From: Bacteroidota bacterium
GTDB lineage: Bacteria; Bacteroidota; Bacteroidia; UKL13-3
DNA: 64,000 bases
Assembly (NCBI GenBank): GCA_034439655.1
Contig: JAWXAU010000091.1
Span: 1,129 to 65,128 of the forward strand
Reading direction: 5' to 3'
The first letter of the stretch is position 1, and each line of letters opens with the position of its first letter. Below the pieces are notes generated by a model that did not search any database, was not told the origin of the DNA, and was given only the letters and a program-made list of their open reading frames with translations. The translations under genes were made by a program, and so were the position numbers. This document shows positions 13,872 to 59,410 of the stretch, piece after piece.

Positions 13872-15023
13872 ATGTGCGAAAACAAACTAATTGACATATC
13901 TAGTTGGCAAAGTGGTAGTAATGATTTCGTTCCAATAGGTAAACGTATAAAGCGAGTTGTATTTGAACCTGAGACAGAAAAATTATACTATTTTAAGGTA
14001 CCTAAAGATAAATATCCTTGGGAGTTTTGGACAGAAGTTATATCATACCAAATTGGACAAAGCTTAGGTTTTAATACCAATTCTTAAACTATAATAGTTC
14101 TCCGCCTGTGGCGGATTAGTTTGTAGAATGGTAATACCGAACTACAATACATTTAGTCCCTTTCTTTTGGACTATTATATATTGAGTTTCGGTATAATGT
14201 ATTGAAATATGAGCCTGCAATTTCTAAAGATTCTGTCGGGTGTTTATCTCCTTCTATGGTAGGAGAGCATGAAGAATTAATACACGGGCAGCAGTTCCTT
14301 ACACAAATATTGCCAACTTTTGAAACTAAAAAAGGGATAGATCATAACTTTCAGTTGATAGAATCTTTCTTTAGAGATAGTGAACATGAAGTTTCTTTCG
14401 AAGAATTTATACACATGTTAGTCTTTGATGCGATAATAGGTAACAGGGATAGGCATCAACAGAATTGGGCTATGATAAGAGGGGTTGAAATAGATGTGAA
14501 AAATCTAAAGTTAAATGCAAAAATATTTAGTCAAGATGCATCAGTATTAAAGATAATATGGCGATTAATAGGATTGGGGCTGTCGAGAAAAACGAATAAG
14601 TCAATTGCAAATATGGAAATAGAAATAAACGAACATTACAGATTTTCTCCCTTTTTTGACAATGGAAATTGTTTGGCATATAATATCATTGAATCCAAAA
14701 TTGGTGATATGGTTAAAAACGAAAAGCAGCTTGAAAATTATCTTTTCGGCAATAAAGCAGTAAGTCATGTTAAGTGGGATGGTGCATCAATTCCACATAT
14801 TGATTTACTTAAAAATGTTTCTCGCCATCATAGGGAAGCTGTTTTGACTGGCATTGAAAAGGTTAATCGAAACTTAAATGCTATATCATTTGAAGATATA
14901 GTAACAAACATTGATAATGGATTGGATGTTGTACAAAAGGATTACGTTCTATCTTTGCAGCGGAAAGAATTAATCTGCAAATTATTGAATGCAAGAGTAG
15001 CTAGGCTTTTAAGCAGTTTTTAA
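13872..15023 (+). pseudogene. HipA-like Ser/Thr kinase gene (HipA_C-type) interrupted by a 114-bp in-frame repeat insertion carrying stop codons
   Basis: ORFs 13872..14087 and 14202..15023 are in the same frame. The downstream part has the HipA catalytic motif (IIGNRDRHQQNWAMI; F.PFFDNGNCL). The upstream part carries the nucleotide-binding lysine region (KRVVFEP...YYFKVP...EVISYQIGQSLG). The 114-nt segment between them (14088..14201) opens with an 85-bp repeat copy (14088..14172) that carries TAG stops. Confidence 0.6.
14088..14172. mobile_element. 85-bp MITE-like element, copy A, inserted in the hipA-like gene
   Basis: aactataatagttctccgcctgtggcggattagtttgtagaatggtaataccgaactacaatacatttagtccctttcttttggac. 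About 90% identical to the reverse complement of 46669..46753. The core is palindromic (ccgcctgtggcgg). Confidence 0.75.
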
Positions 15024-15683
15024 ATGGTATTAAACAATATATATATTAGTTGGCGGAAAGGTAAGGGTGGGAACCGTTATCTTATAGGTTTGCTCGAGAG
15101 GCTAACTAGTGGATTTGCCTTTTCTTATATAAAAGAAGAAGTTATTAAGGCGAGAAATGATGGGTTCAAAAATTATCCCGATTTTTCTACTGTGAATTTT
15201 GACCATAAATATACCGGTGATTTAGAAAGAGTTTTTTCACTTAGACTAATGCCCGAGGGGCGACCCGATCGTGAACAGTATCTTTCTTTTTGGGATGCAA
15301 ATAATCCAAAATATGATTGGTTTGACGAATTGGGATTTACCCAAGGGAGATTAGCCACTGATAATTTTGAATTTCTTGCTAAGCTTCCATATTATGATAA
15401 TAATCTAGGGTTCGTAACCGATATAGCCTCACTAACTCATAATCCACTACCTATTGACAAGGTAAAGCAAGGAGACAAGTTAAGATTTGAACTGGACACA
15501 AACCATCTTACAGACCCTAGTGCTGTTAAGGTATATAAAGACTCCGAATTTATTGGTTACATTAAAAGAGGGCATTCATTTTTCTTTAAAGATGCAAACA
15601 GAAACAGATTGAGATTAACGGTTAAGCACATTGAAAAAAATGGAATGGTTAATCAATTATATATTTCTGTAATAAAGGAATAA
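15024..15683 (+). CDS. Hypothetical protein with a C-terminal HIRAN-like domain, translationally coupled to the hipA-like gene
   Basis: 219 aa. The start ATG overlaps the upstream stop (TAAATG). The C-terminal segment GDKLRFELDTNHLTDPSAVKVYKDSEFIGYIKRG matches the HIRAN consensus (G..v.L.rEpdNpyDpnAikV...g..iGYvpr). The N-terminal ~140 aa are unassigned. Confidence 0.55.
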   Translation: MVLNNIYISWRKGKGGNRYLIGLLERLTSGFAFSYIKEEVIKARNDGFKNYPDFSTVNFDHKYTGDLERVFSLRLMPEGRPDREQYLSFWDANNPKYDWFDELGFTQGRLATDNFEFLAKLPYYDNNLGFVTDIASLTHNPLPIDKVKQGDKLRFELDTNHLTDPSAVKVYKDSEFIGYIKRGHSFFFKDANRNRLRLTVKHIEKNGMVNQLYISVIKE

Positions 15684-45569: not shown

Positions 45570-46601
45570 ATGCCTCAAACTACCATTCCAAAACAACGCA
45601 TCATTTGGCCTGACAACCTCAGAGCCTTGGCTACAGTAGCTGTAGTGGTGCTTCATGTTTCCAGTTCTATATTATATGAATGGGGCAAAGTATCTTCTTC
45701 CGATTGGTGGACAGGAAATATATATGATTCTTTAGTTCGCTGGTGTGTCCCAGTTTTTTTGATGGTGACGGGTGCGTTGCTCATTCCAAAACAAGATACT
45801 TTTGCTGAAATTATAGCAAACAGAATTGGGAAACTCATCGTGCCTTTTGCCTTTTGGAGTTTGATATATTTGATTAATTCGCTCTACATACAAATAATTC
45901 AAGATAATGAGATGAGCATTTCTCAATGTTTTGTATATATCGCCAAAAGCCTTTACCATGGCACGTCTTATCACTTATGGTATATCTATGTTCTGCTGGG
46001 AATATATTTACTTTTGCCTACTATATCCAAAAATTTAAACCTTTTATCTGATAAGAATTTATTATATATTATACTTCTTTGGATGCTGATATTATGTCTG
46101 AATTATATACCAAGTTTGCATTTTAAACCCTTGGCATTTGTGGGATATGTAGGCTATGCTGTTTTTGGTTTTTATTTATTTAAAGTGTCCATCAATAATA
46201 TAATGGCTTTTCTAATGTTGGCGGCAGGTTTAGCCATCACTGCTTATGGCACGTTTTACTTATCAAATCAGCAAAAAGGTTTCAATGAAATGTTATACAA
46301 TTATAATACGCCGCATATTGCAATTATGGCAGCAGGAGTTTTCATATTGGCAAAAAATGAGACGAAAAATTATAATAATAAATGGTTTGTGAAAATCAGA
46401 AATGTTATAGCACAAAAAAGTTTGGGGGTCTATTTAATACATGTACTTATTTTAGAAATCTTAAACAAGTTCGGAATAGATTGGTTTTACCTGGAACCTT
46501 TACTGAGCATACCATTTACAGCTATGGTTTGTTTAATTATATCAACTACAATAGTATATTATGGAAGTAAATCTCAAGTTGGAAAATATATATTTGGATG
46601 A
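45570..46601 (+). CDS. Acyltransferase 3 family membrane protein
   Basis: 343 aa with ~10 TM helices. The N-terminal segment LRALATVAVVVLH..W matches the acyl_transf_3 family. Confidence 0.65.
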   Translation: MPQTTIPKQRIIWPDNLRALATVAVVVLHVSSSILYEWGKVSSSDWWTGNIYDSLVRWCVPVFLMVTGALLIPKQDTFAEIIANRIGKLIVPFAFWSLIYLINSLYIQIIQDNEMSISQCFVYIAKSLYHGTSYHLWYIYVLLGIYLLLPTISKNLNLLSDKNLLYIILLWMLILCLNYIPSLHFKPLAFVGYVGYAVFGFYLFKVSINNIMAFLMLAAGLAITAYGTFYLSNQQKGFNEMLYNYNTPHIAIMAAGVFILAKNETKNYNNKWFVKIRNVIAQKSLGVYLIHVLILEILNKFGIDWFYLEPLLSIPFTAMVCLIISTTIVYYGSKSQVGKYIFG

Positions 46602-46870
46602 ATTTTTTTCGTCATACTGTTCGCCGCGGCGAATCGTCAATAGGTAGTACCGACACTCAATATATAATAGTCCAAAAGAAAGGGACTAAATATAGTAGTT
46701 CGGCATTACCATTCTACAAACTAAATCCGCCACAGGCGGAGAACTATTATAGTTTAAGAATTGGTATAATTATTATATTACCAATAATTAAAAGACGAGG
46801 CGAAGAATCTGCTGGGGAAGTAAGCATCTTCCAACCAAAACAGATTCTTCGCAGTAAAGCAATTTTCATA
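46602..46870. repeat. Composite repeat cluster: GTCATACTG/TTCGCCGCGGCGAA unit + 85-bp element copy B (46669..46753) + CGAAGAATCTG hairpin (46796..46856)
   Basis: The 85-bp copy B is the reverse complement of 14088..14172 (~90% identity). gcgaagaatctg ... cagattcttcgc are inverted arms. The ORFs called here (46598..47002 etc.) are repeat translations. Confidence 0.7.
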
Positions 46871-46886
46871 ATGGCGGGAATATATC

Positions 46887-47468
46887 CTATTTCTGCGAAT
46901 CCATTCCCTCCAAAAAACACCTGCGGCAACGCGGTTCATATAAATCTTTTTCACCCAAAACAACAAGGCCACCTTCGTTTTTTTTTCGATACGAATGCAT
47001 AGCAATATCTCCACATTGCACACAGATGGCGTGTACCTTGGTTACATAATCGGCAATTGCCATAAGGTTGGGCATTGGGCCAAAGGGTTTTCCCAAATAG
47101 TCCATGTCGAGCCCTGCAACTATTACACGGAGACCGCTGTGGGCAAGCTGCTCACAAACTTCTACCAAACCCATATCGAAAAATTGGGCCTCATCAATTC
47201 CAACAACACTTGCTTCACGAACCAATAATAATATATTACCCGAAGCGGGCACGGGCGTAGACATAATTGCATTTGCATCGTGCGACACTACTTGCTGTTC
47301 ATCGTAACGAGTATCGATGGCTGGTTTAAATATCTCGGTTTTCTGATTGGCGATTTTTGCCCGTTTCAATCTGCGAATAAGTTCTTCGGTTTTGCCCGAG
47401 AACATACTTCCGCAAACAACTTCTATCCATCCTTTTCCGTGGTTTCCATATTTGGGTTCTATAAACAT
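46887..47468 (-). CDS. tdk: Thymidine kinase
   Basis: 193 aa. P-loop [14 protein letters not shown] and a C-terminal zinc ribbon (CxxC...C..C). Confidence 0.9.
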
Positions 47469-55043: not shown

Positions 55044-55206
55044 TTCGCCGCGGCGAATTGTTTCAATACGAAGAATCTGTTGGATCGTAGTCGAAACCCG
55101 CTCCCTATGAACAGATTCTTCGTCTCGTTTATAAAGTATTTCTAAATATTAGAAATTATCGTTTGACGAGACTCAGAATGACGTTGATGCTGACTCAGAA
55201 TGACGG
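55044..55206. repeat. Composite palindromic repeat (TTCGCCGCGGCGAA + CGAAGAATCTG hairpin + two ACTCAGAATGACG termini)
   Basis: ttcgccgcggcgaa at 55044. cgaagaatctg(55069)...cagattcttcg(55112). actcagaatgacg at 55171 and 55193. Confidence 0.7.
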
Positions 55207-55719: not shown

Positions 55720-55851
55720 TTCGCCGCGGGGAATGGGGGTTGCTGACGCATGATTTAATTGCGATGTTTATGAACTAAGAAGTAGGATTTAGTGCTTGCT
55801 ACTATAAGATTCTTCGAATTGAATCCCGATAAGTCGGGATCAGAATGACGG
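55720..55851. repeat. Half-element of the CGTCATTCTGA family (inverse orientation) plus TTCGCCGCGGGGAA
   Basis: agattcttcgaattgaatcccgataagtcgggatcagaatgacgg is the reverse complement of the left end of 41379..41510. Confidence 0.65.
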
Positions 55852-59221: not shown

Positions 59222-59410
59222 GTCTCCGATTCATGAGATTCTTCGCCCGAAGCGGTTCGCCAAGGCGAATCGTTGACCTGATGCGAGAATATGTCTCCGA
59301 TTCATGAGATTCTTCGTCTCGTCTTTTAAGAATTTGCACATATAATAATTATCCTCTTGACGATTCGCCGCGGCGAACAGAATGACGGTCATCTGCCGCG
59401 GCGAAGCACC
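59222..59410. repeat. Composite repeat cluster (two GATTCATGAGATTCTTCG units + TTCGCCGCGGCGAA + CAGAATGACGG)
   Basis: ccgattcatgagattcttcgcccgaagcgg (59227) is repeated at 59296. ttcgccgcggcgaa is at 59364, followed by cagaatgacgg and ctgccgcggcgaag. Confidence 0.7.

What the first reader, a model, noticed from the sequence alone, without database searches (positions are those of the whole stretch)
14088..14201. 114-bp in-frame insertion of a small repeat element inside the hipA-like kinase gene
The two kinase ORFs (13872..14087 and 14202..15023) are in the same frame. They are separated by exactly 114 nt (38 codons) that contain TAA/TAG stops.

The first 85 nt of this segment (14088..14172) are ~90% identical to the reverse complement of 46669..46753, an intergenic site 32 kb away.

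So a mobile MITE-like element has landed in a coding sequence, between the nucleotide-binding region and the catalytic loop. This pseudogenises the putative toxin while leaving the downstream HIRAN gene intact.

A length that is a multiple of three is notable, though stops still block read-through. Translation could restart at the TTG at 14202, giving an N-truncated kinase.
Basis: seen in the sequence. Interest (0 to 1): 0.55.

Follow-up and report, generated by a model that had tools for sequence, protein, structure and literature searches.

The report
MITE insertion splitting a defence-kinase gene
A 120-base non-coding mobile repeat, present at 110 or more sites in this uncultured Bacteroidota bacterium, has jumped into and broken a HipA/CtkA-like kinase gene of a candidate two-gene anti-phage system; this is an ordinary kind of event, though the repeat family appears undescribed.

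Summary
The inserted DNA is a 120-nt element (14075..14194, TACC…GGTA) plus a duplicated TAA (14072-74 and 14195-97), so 123 nt were added.

Removing the 123 nt restores a clean 342-codon gene. It aligns without a gap across the junction (…LGFN|VLKYEPAI…) with all homologues. An 85%-identical orthologue carries the empty site with a single TAAT.

The element belongs to a family found at 110 distinct sites in two metagenomes:
- Flanks are TWA on both sides. The 3-nt flanks match in 74 of 99 TWA/TWA copies.
- The terminal inverted repeats are imperfect (16/24).
- There are four size classes.
- It is built from two hairpin modules.
- 96% of copies are intergenic.

This fits a MITE. No cognate transposase was found.

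The broken gene has a HipA/CtkA-fold kinase. Together with the intact downstream HIRAN-like gene it matches PADLOC candidate defence system PDC-M03 (A and B), not a HipBA toxin–antitoxin pair.

The insertion cuts off the strands and helix that carry the invariant Lys42 and Glu55, and it introduces three in-frame stops. The kinase is therefore almost certainly dead.

Verdict: a recent, apparently fixed pseudogenisation, and a new member of a known kind.

The parts
13872..14074 (+). 5' fragment of the HipA/CtkA-like kinase gene (PDC-M03A): codons 1-67 and the first two bases of codon 68. The annotated 71-aa ORF runs on into the element to a TAA at 14085-87.
14072..14074 (.). Left copy of the target-site duplication, TAA.
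   Evidence: The empty site in orthologue L001 has a single TAAT. Family flanks are TWA.
14075..14194 (+). Copy A of the MITE (short size class), 120 nt, TACC…GGTA. It has stops in all six frames and matches the subfamily consensus at 115 of 121 positions.
14075..14133 (+). Hairpin module H1 (TACCAATTC…GAATGGTA). It contains a terminator-like GC hairpin at 14101..14115 followed by TTAGTTTGTA.
   Evidence: Fold of -40.8 kcal/mol, z = -6.1. Terminator scan. Solo H1 copies exist elsewhere.
14135..14194 (+). Hairpin module H2 (TACCGAACTAC…GAGTTTCGGTA). Its inner part is the variable region that defines the four size classes.
14195..14197 (.). Right copy of the target-site duplication, TAA.
14198..15023 (+). 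3' fragment of the kinase gene: last base of codon 68 through the stop. It holds the catalytic loop GNRDRHQQNW and the FDNG motif. It is annotated in GenBank as the 273-aa hypothetical protein MDZ4757676 (SGJ10_05995), starting at TTG 14202.
15024..15683 (+). Intact downstream partner gene (PDC-M03B). It has a weak HIRAN-like C-terminal region, and its ATG directly follows the kinase stop codon.
46648..46766 (-). Copy B of the same MITE, 119 nt, flanks TTA / CTA. It sits in the convergent spacer between an acyltransferase_3 gene (45570..46601, +) and thymidine kinase (46887..47468, -).

Best explanation
A non-autonomous cut-and-paste transposable element (a MITE) inserted at a TAA in codons 67-68 of a kinase gene and duplicated that trinucleotide.

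Shown:
- The inserted DNA is 120 nt plus a 3-nt duplication. It has no coding capacity and places three stops in the kinase frame.
- The pre-insertion gene can be rebuilt exactly.
- Related organisms carry the uninterrupted gene.
- The element is one of at least 110 dispersed copies with TWA flanks, imperfect terminal inverted repeats and a two-hairpin modular build.

Inferred:
- A DDE transposase that makes 3-nt staggered cuts at TWA moved it in trans. The best guess is an IS5 / PIF-Harbinger-type enzyme, but none was found.
- The kinase is inactivated. The 5' fragment carries the Lys42/Glu55 ATP-binding part of the N-lobe, and the 3' fragment carries the catalytic and metal-binding loops.
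- The insertion is recent relative to the gene's history, but fixed in the populations sampled so far.
- The gene pair is a candidate anti-phage system (PADLOC PDC-M03), so the event is the loss of a dispensable accessory defence gene. The partner gene is still intact.
For: - Excising 14075..14197 gives an open 342-codon frame.
- The alignment with 10 homologues has no gap across …LGFN|VLKYEPAI….
- Orthologue L001 (85% aa identity) has the empty site GATTT-TAAT-GTATTA, against GGTTT-TAA[element]TAA-TGTATTG in the window.
- The same interrupted gene occurs in independent assemblies L016 and L017. Logan unitigs from two runs break 28-30 nt inside either end of the element.
- Family: 95 metagenome stretches gave 112 full copies at 110 sites.
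- Flanks are TWA in 106/112 (left) and 105/112 (right). The middle base agrees in 74 of 99, Fisher p = 1.8e-6.
- The terminal inverted repeat matches at 16 of 24 positions, and there are four size classes.
- Only 5 of 112 copies lie in a possible ORF, against 73% of random positions.
- Copies are enriched in convergent spacers and show no orientation bias.
- There are no Rfam matches.
- Kinase fold: model pLDDT 90.7, best match CtkA with TM 0.80, then HipT and HipA. The profile hit to CtkA has E = 2.6e-6.
- PDC-M03A scores E = 5e-53 and PDC-M03B scores E = 2e-26.
- dN/dS against the orthologue is 0.07, and all invariant residues are retained.
- PIF/Harbinger elements make TWA duplications (PMC4482050).
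Against: - No autonomous element with matching ends, and no multi-copy DDE transposase, was found in about 0.94 Mb of DNA from this organism or community.
- 25 of 99 copies have discordant TAA/TTA flanks. That is more than the roughly 5% sequence divergence of the copies would predict by point mutation alone. It needs recombination between copies or another explanation.
- Loss of kinase function and effects on partner-gene expression are inferred, not measured.
- A defence role for PDC-M03 rests only on a candidate-system HMM and on the defence-island context of the orthologue.
Confidence: 0.9

Rival explanations
1. Assembly or sequencing artefact: a dispersed repeat was wrongly spliced into the kinase gene during metagenome assembly.
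For: The source is a metagenome-assembled genome, and short-read assemblers do break at this repeat.
Against: The identical junctions are present in the window, in NCBI MAG GCA_964566565.1 (L016) and in a JGI contig from another sample (L017). Logan unitigs from two runs reach 28-30 nt into the element from both gene sides. The perfect TAA duplication and the exact restoration of the frame are signatures of transposition, not of a chimera.
Confidence: 0.02
2. The hairpin repeats are REP/BIME- or REPIN-like elements spread by a Y1 (RAYT/IS200-605-type) transposase or by a tyrosine recombinase, rather than a MITE moved by a DDE transposase.
For: The element has a modular mosaic of two palindromic units that also occur alone or in tandem. 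It is strongly intergenic and favours convergent spacers. No DDE transposase was found. A tyrosine-recombinase gene is flanked by two direct copies in L010/L053.
Against: A target trinucleotide is duplicated at the one site where the empty state is known. The left and right TWA agree far more often than chance, and single-strand Y1 transposition leaves no duplication. The recombinase association is not consistent: a second recombinase copy in L087 is not flanked in the same way, and the recombinase 3' flank looks like an insertion hot spot.
Confidence: 0.07
3. The insert is a functional in-frame module (as with Rickettsia palindromic elements), an intron or intein, or a recoding site, so a full-length or functional split kinase is still produced.
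For: The added length is a multiple of three (123 nt). Both gene halves are otherwise undamaged.
Against: There are three in-frame stops and stops in all six frames. Nothing in Rfam matches. No homologue has any residues at this position. Family lengths follow no 3n rule beyond inherited subfamily sizes, and 96% of copies are intergenic. The split falls inside the N-lobe, between the Lys42/Glu55 elements and the next strand.
Confidence: 0.01

Closest known systems
Bacterial MITEs such as Correia elements of Neisseria (from my own knowledge)
   Same: Small (about 100-160 nt) and non-coding, with terminal inverted repeats, a short AT-rich target duplication, and tens to hundreds of dispersed copies. 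They are mostly intergenic, fold into stable hairpins, and occasionally disrupt genes.
   Different: There is no sequence relation and no Rfam match. The duplication is 3 nt (TWA), not TA. The build is two related hairpin modules that also exist alone. The family was seen only in one uncultured Bacteroidota lineage.
Tourist-type MITEs and their PIF/Harbinger (IS5-related) transposases
   Same: A 3-nt TWA target-site duplication (PMC4482050), and an AT-rich target preference.
   Different: Those are eukaryotic. Here no transposase of the DDE_Tnp_1/DDE_Tnp_4 type with matching ends was found. The one IS5-like element seen is in a related genome (L116) and has different ends.
REP / BIME / REPIN elements (from my own knowledge)
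   Same: Mosaic arrays of short palindromic units, intergenic location and high copy number.
   Different: The elements here are bounded by duplicated TWA and have TACC…GGTA ends. No RAYT gene was seen (not specifically searched for).
Rickettsia palindromic elements (from my own knowledge)
   Same: Palindromic repeats of about 100-150 nt found inside protein-coding genes, with an added length divisible by three.
   Different: RPEs stay open and are translated as part of the host protein. This copy carries three in-frame stops and breaks the gene.
PADLOC candidate defence system PDC-M03; HipA-superfamily kinases (CtkA, HipT, HipA)
   Same: Both genes hit the PDC-M03A/B models (E = 5e-53 and 2e-26). 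The kinase model superposes on CtkA with TM 0.80 and on HipT and HipA more weakly. It has the catalytic loop GNRDRHxxNW.
   Different: It is not a HipBA module. There is no upstream HTH antitoxin gene, the partner lies downstream and is HIRAN-like, and the Pfam HipA_C score (26.9) is below the 30.5 cut-off. I found no experimental report of PDC-M03 function; the only paper found merely mentions the name.

Membership tests
MITE (miniature inverted-repeat transposable element) | Small and without coding capacity | tested here: met
   120 nt with stops in all six frames. Family sizes are 116-164 nt, apart from nested or composite copies.
MITE (miniature inverted-repeat transposable element) | Terminal inverted repeats | tested here: met
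   The ends TACCAATTCTTAAACTAAAATAGT and TACCGAAACTCAATATATAATAGT (reverse complement of the right end) match at 16 of 24 positions. The terminal TACC and the inner TAATAGT are conserved. The repeat is imperfect.
MITE (miniature inverted-repeat transposable element) | Target-site duplication, shown by an empty site | tested here: met
   Orthologue L001 has one TAAT where the window has TAA-element-TAA. Across the family, flanks are TWA in about 94% of copies, and the middle base agrees in 74 of 99, p = 1.8e-6.
MITE (miniature inverted-repeat transposable element) | Many dispersed copies with high mutual identity | tested here: met
   110 distinct sites in metagenomes Ga0163151 and Ga0163149, plus 2 in the window. 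Copies are 87-98% identical to the subfamily consensus.
MITE (miniature inverted-repeat transposable element) | A cognate autonomous IS sharing the terminal repeats | tested here: inconclusive
   None was found in about 0.94 Mb of fetched DNA. There is no multi-copy transposase ORF. Solo ends and end pairs 0.6-3 kb apart enclose ordinary genes. IS elements are often missing from short-read metagenome contigs.
IS5 / PIF-Harbinger-mobilised element | 3-nt TWA duplication | tested here: met
   the family property is taken from PMC4482050.
IS5 / PIF-Harbinger-mobilised element | A DDE_Tnp_1/DDE_Tnp_4 transposase in the same genome whose IS has the same ends | tested here: not met
   The IS5-like element of the related genome L116 has ends GAACTGATTTAAAC…. 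Its transposase has no tblastn hit in the window or the MITE-bearing loci.
Rickettsia-palindromic-element-like in-frame coding insert | The host reading frame stays open through the insert | tested here: not met
   In-frame stops at TAA 14085, TAG 14124 and TAG 14154.
REP/BIME/REPIN | No target duplication; association with a RAYT (Y1) transposase | tested here: not met
   A duplication is present. RAYT genes were not specifically searched for.
Self-splicing intron or other known structured RNA | A match to a curated covariance model | tested here: not met
   No Rfam hit at gathering score across the window, nor at E ≤ 1 on 14040..14230.
HipBA toxin-antitoxin module | HipA_C domain at or above Pfam's gathering score | tested here: not met
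   26.9 bits against a cut-off of 30.5. The fold is nevertheless of the HipA superfamily.
HipBA toxin-antitoxin module | An adjacent upstream HipB-type HTH antitoxin gene | tested here: not met
   Upstream there is a class I aldolase gene and a 184-nt spacer with no ORF. The partner is downstream and HIRAN-like.
PADLOC PDC-M03 candidate defence system | Adjacent, co-oriented genes matching the A and B models | tested here: met
   A scores E = 5.4e-53 (on the rebuilt protein) and B scores E = 2.1e-26. The genes abut. The orthologous pair lies beside ResIII, N6_N4_Mtase, KilA-N and PDDEXK_3 genes.
PADLOC PDC-M03 candidate defence system | Demonstrated protection against phage | not testable with these tools
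   Only one paper mentions the name, and it reports no functional data that I saw.

The most novel reading that the evidence does not exclude
The most novel reading not excluded has two parts.

First, this two-module hairpin family may be moved by an enzyme other than a classical cognate IS transposase. The family has TWA duplications, modules that also occur alone or in tandem, and no cognate IS in about 0.94 Mb of surrounding DNA. One candidate is the tyrosine recombinase found flanked by two direct copies.

Second, insertion and precise excision at the TAA could act as a reversible off-switch for a toxic defence kinase.
Probability: 0.07. Interest if true: 0.6.

Novelty: new member of a known kind. 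Interest (0 to 1): 0.3.

Why it matters
For annotation, the two 'hypothetical proteins' in the GenBank record are halves of one pseudogene, and the locus should be read as a decayed PDC-M03 candidate defence system.

More generally, the finding documents an undescribed, abundant MITE family in an uncultured Bacteroidota lineage, with at least 110 sites, a clear 3-nt TWA duplication and a modular two-hairpin build. It is also a clean natural example of a mobile element knocking out a defence-type kinase while its partner survives. The intact orthologue offers a ready control for testing what PDC-M03 does.

None of this changes current understanding. MITE insertions into accessory genes are routine.

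Tried and rejected
- A TA duplication with CC…GG ends (IS630/Tc1-like) was rejected. It predicts a pre-insertion site 5 nt longer than the orthologue's, and out of frame.
- A 4-nt TAAT duplication was rejected. Only 2 of 112 family copies share 4 flanking bases.
- Search for more copies in the window: only the two known ones turned up.
- The genome-collection scan with the GC-hairpin 20-mer gave 13 loci, but only L010 holds real copies. The other 12 match the 20-23 nt hairpin alone.
- The viral-contig scan gave nothing.
- Search for an autonomous partner, all negative:
  - Clustering of all ORFs of 180 aa or more gave only a tyrosine recombinase as a multi-copy gene.
  - Left ends lacking a nearby right end were truncated, nested or interrupted copies.
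  - End pairs 0.6-3 kb apart enclose housekeeping genes such as RsmH, a universal stress protein and an SDR.
  - The IS5-like transposase from related genome L116 has no homologue in the MITE-bearing DNA.
- Search for an empty-site allele in the same species: none. All cluster members at 90% identity or more are the truncated 273/255-aa form, and the best intact protein is 85% identical.
- An orientation-dependent terminator role for the family was rejected: 24 copies point with the genes and 22 against in tandem spacers.
- Literature searches for bacterial TWA-type MITEs and for PDC-M03 gave nothing specific.

Full report
**Observation.**
- The ORFs 13872..14087 and 14202..15023 share a frame and lie 114 nt apart.
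- In that frame there are stops at 14085 (TAA), 14124 (TAG) and 14154 (TAG).
It is only the core of a longer repeat.
- The full repeat is 14075..14194 against 46648..46766 on the minus strand, with 115 of 121 aligned columns identical.
- Sub-patterns of 20 and 35 nt each occur exactly twice in the window, against none in shuffled sequence.
- No further copy is present in the 64 kb.

**Exact anatomy of the insertion.**
- The element begins TACCAATTC… and ends …GAGTTTCGGTA. A TAA lies directly on each side (14072-74 and 14195-97).
- Deleting the element plus one TAA, 123 nt in all, joins …GGT TTT AA|T GTA TTG AAA… and yields an uninterrupted 342-codon gene.
- The rebuilt protein aligns with ten homologues without any gap across the junction. 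The consensus there is LGFNVLKYEPAI, and F67 and N68 are invariant.
- The closest intact homologue, P0001 (343 aa, 85% identical), comes from ENA metagenome contigs. At the DNA level it has GATTT-TAAT-GTATTAAAATATGAG where the window has GGTTT-TAA-[120 nt]-TAA-TGTATTGAAATATGAG. This is a classical empty site against a filled site.
- The '114 nt, 38 codons' therefore describes only the gap between a chance stop and a chance TTG. The true added length, 123 nt, is also divisible by three, which is why the two halves remain in frame. Family lengths show no such rule beyond inherited subfamily sizes.

**Not an artefact.**
- The same interrupted arrangement (a 71-aa ORF plus a 273-aa ORF) is found in NCBI MAG GCA_964566565.1 (L016) and in a JGI contig from another sample (L017).
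- Logan unitigs from SRR6448212 and SRR6448209 run 28-30 nt into the element from both sides and then stop, as expected at a multi-copy repeat.
- The window belongs to a Bacteroidota MAG. There the 3' piece is annotated as hypothetical protein MDZ4757676 (SGJ10_05995).
- No intact allele at 90% identity or more exists in the 15-billion-protein collection.

**The repeat family.**
- *Copies and distribution.*
  - An exact-match scan of metagenome contigs with the left-end 23-mer returned 95 stretches, all from Ga0163151 or Ga0163149.
  - These gave 112 full-length copies at 110 distinct sites.
  - A scan of one genome per species found true copies only in one MAG, JAWXAZ010000106.1 (L010). Viral contigs gave none.
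- *Ends and flanks.*
  - All copies begin TACC and end GGTA.
  - The three bases outside are TAA or TTA in 106/112 copies on the left and 105/112 on the right. No conservation extends further.
  - Where both flanks are TWA, the middle base agrees in 74 of 99 copies, against about 51 expected (Fisher p = 1.8e-6). With the empty site, this establishes a 3-nt TWA target-site duplication.
  - The 25 discordant pairs are more than point mutation at about 5% divergence would give. Recombination between copies is the simplest explanation, but I did not test it.
  - The ends form an imperfect inverted repeat of 16/24.
- *Size classes and modules.*
  - There are four size classes: about 121 nt (22 copies), 133 nt (25), 145 nt (5) and 162 nt (50). 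They differ only in an internal GC-rich hairpin. Both window copies belong to the shortest class.
  - The element folds as two hairpins, at -40.8 kcal/mol with z = -6.1.
  - The two modules, H1 and H2, each bounded by T(A/G)CC…GGTA, also occur alone, duplicated or nested.
- *Location.*
  - Only 5 of 112 copies could lie inside a long ORF, against 73% of random positions in the same contigs.
  - Copies are enriched in convergent spacers (39% against 17%) and depleted in divergent ones. In tandem spacers there is no orientation bias, 24 against 22.
- *No RNA family match.* Rfam has nothing similar.

All of this is the behaviour of a MITE under selection against harmful insertions. The kinase copy is one of the very few genic insertions that have survived.

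**Which enzyme moves it.**
- This step is inferred. A 3-nt TWA duplication is the hallmark of PIF/Harbinger transposons (PMC4482050), whose transposases are related to the bacterial IS5 family.
- I could not find a cognate element:
  - There is no multi-copy transposase among 554 ORFs of 180 aa or more.
  - Unpaired or widely spaced ends enclose ordinary genes.
  - An IS5-like element (DUF4096/DDE_Tnp_1/DDE_Tnp_4) sits beside the aldolase gene in a related genome (L116). It has different ends and no homologue in the MITE-bearing DNA.
- A tyrosine-recombinase gene flanked by two direct copies (L010/L053) was examined. The association is not reproducible, and the recombinase 3' flank looks like another repeat into which MITEs have inserted.

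**The gene that was hit.**
- The rebuilt protein scores below threshold for Pfam HipA_C (26.9 against 30.5 bits), and the partner scores below threshold for HIRAN (23.2 against 24.7).
- Both match PADLOC's candidate system PDC-M03 strongly: A with E = 5.4e-53 and B with E = 2.1e-26.
- A profile of the family finds the *Helicobacter pylori* kinase CtkA in the PDB (E = 2.6e-6).
- An AlphaFold model of the intact orthologue (pLDDT 90.7) superposes on CtkA (TM 0.80), then on HipT and HipA.
- Across 48 homologues the invariant residues include K42, E51, W53, E55, D146, G150, N151, D153, R154, H155, N158, W159, D223 and G225 (numbering of P0001).
- The insertion falls after the helix of residues 52-64 and before the strand of residues 73-77. 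The 71-aa fragment keeps the Lys42/Glu55 elements, and the 273-aa fragment keeps the catalytic and metal-binding loops. Neither piece should be an active kinase. This is an inference.
- There is no upstream antitoxin-type gene. The partner starts at the base after the kinase stop. The locus is therefore not a HipBA module.
- In the orthologous locus the pair sits next to ResIII helicase, N6_N4 methyltransferase, KilA-N and PDDEXK_3 genes. Here it lies between aldolase and methionine aminopeptidase genes, in a spot that differs among relatives. This fits a mobile defence cassette.

**Age.**
- Against the orthologue, dN/dS is 0.07 for the kinase (0.03 for the 5' part and 0.09 for the 3' part) and 0.04 for the partner. 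Synonymous sites are near saturation.
- Every invariant residue is retained in the window allele, and the duplication is perfect. The break is therefore recent relative to the gene's history.
- One other sampled allele (L017) carries F144I at an otherwise invariant position. This is a single hint of relaxed constraint.
- The element brings a terminator-like hairpin in the sense orientation at 14101..14115, so polarity on the partner gene is possible but untested.

**Verdict.**
The corrections concern the boundaries and the classification of the gene pair.
- The event is an ordinary MITE pseudogenisation of an accessory, probably defence-related, kinase.
- What is new is the family itself, with its TWA duplication, two-module build and restriction to one uncultured lineage.
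- The unresolved point is its transposase.

Noticed in passing
window 46620-46633, 55044-55057, 55720-55733 (1 mismatch), 59364-59377; also 12 sites in 10 loci (e.g. L033 4989, L097 3463 and 8596): A 14-nt GC-rich perfect palindrome, TTCGCCGCGGCGAA, recurs in intergenic DNA, against 0 expected in shuffles. One copy lies 15 nt from MITE copy B. It is probably a second small repeat or terminator family.
   Followed up: partly
L010 2984-4446 (same locus as L053); L087, L024, L045, L059, L041: A tyrosine-recombinase gene (370 aa) is flanked by two direct MITE copies just downstream of rpsB-tsf. A conserved stretch of up to about 100 nt following its stop codon (a 40-nt core in all of them) recurs next to MITE left ends in five other loci, sometimes with only a remnant of the gene. 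This looks like a second mobile unit riddled with MITE insertions.
   Followed up: partly
L027 11696, L030, L094 (…CGGAAGTTAAAACATAC…); L028, L036, L089, L090 (…TAGACCTCTTTCATAATTC…): Two other recurrent sequence ends interrupt or abut MITE copies, often at contig ends. In L090 one of them forms an insert of about 380 nt nested in a MITE. They are likely ends of further IS or non-autonomous elements.
   Followed up: no
L003-L009, L011-L015 (genome-contig hits): The 20-mer TTCTCCGCCTGTGGCGGATT matches exactly in 12 unrelated genomes (Lachnospiraceae, Ignavibacteriota, Solibacter and others). My own estimate is about one match expected by chance in 596 Gb. None of these carries the rest of the element. 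It may be a convergent terminator-type hairpin, but it remains unexplained.
   Followed up: partly
L116 5685-6588 (GCA_025363675.1) and L119 (GCA_043750035.1): In relatives whose aldolase is at least 90% identical, the DNA downstream of the aldolase gene differs from the window. L116 has a 904-bp IS5-like element (23-nt inverted repeats, 274-aa DUF4096/DDE_Tnp_1/DDE_Tnp_4 transposase). L119 has rlmN followed by HepT/MNT and ParDE toxin-antitoxin pairs. This is a variable spot.
   Followed up: partly
L017 (JGI Ga0163149_10062037), protein P0099: The interrupted kinase allele from this sample has F144I at a position invariant in the 11-sequence alignment. It is the only difference from the window's 3' fragment and may be early decay of the pseudogene.
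   Followed up: no
window 14656-14684 (+): There is a perfect 12/12 sigma-70-type promoter match (TTGACA, 17 nt, TATAAT) inside the 3' part of the kinase gene, 340 nt upstream of the partner gene. Its relevance is doubtful, since Bacteroidota promoters differ from this consensus.
   Followed up: no
L001 1-7692: The intact orthologous kinase and partner pair lies immediately downstream of ResIII helicase, KilA-N, PDDEXK_3, N6_N4 methyltransferase and DUF6998 genes. This is a defence-island-like setting, unlike the housekeeping neighbourhood in the window.
   Followed up: no
L038 11495, L088 4502, L032 7731: Three other MITE copies may sit inside ORFs of 172-231 codons (a membrane protein, a repeat protein and a secreted protein). 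The gene identities and the reality of these disruptions were not checked.
   Followed up: partly
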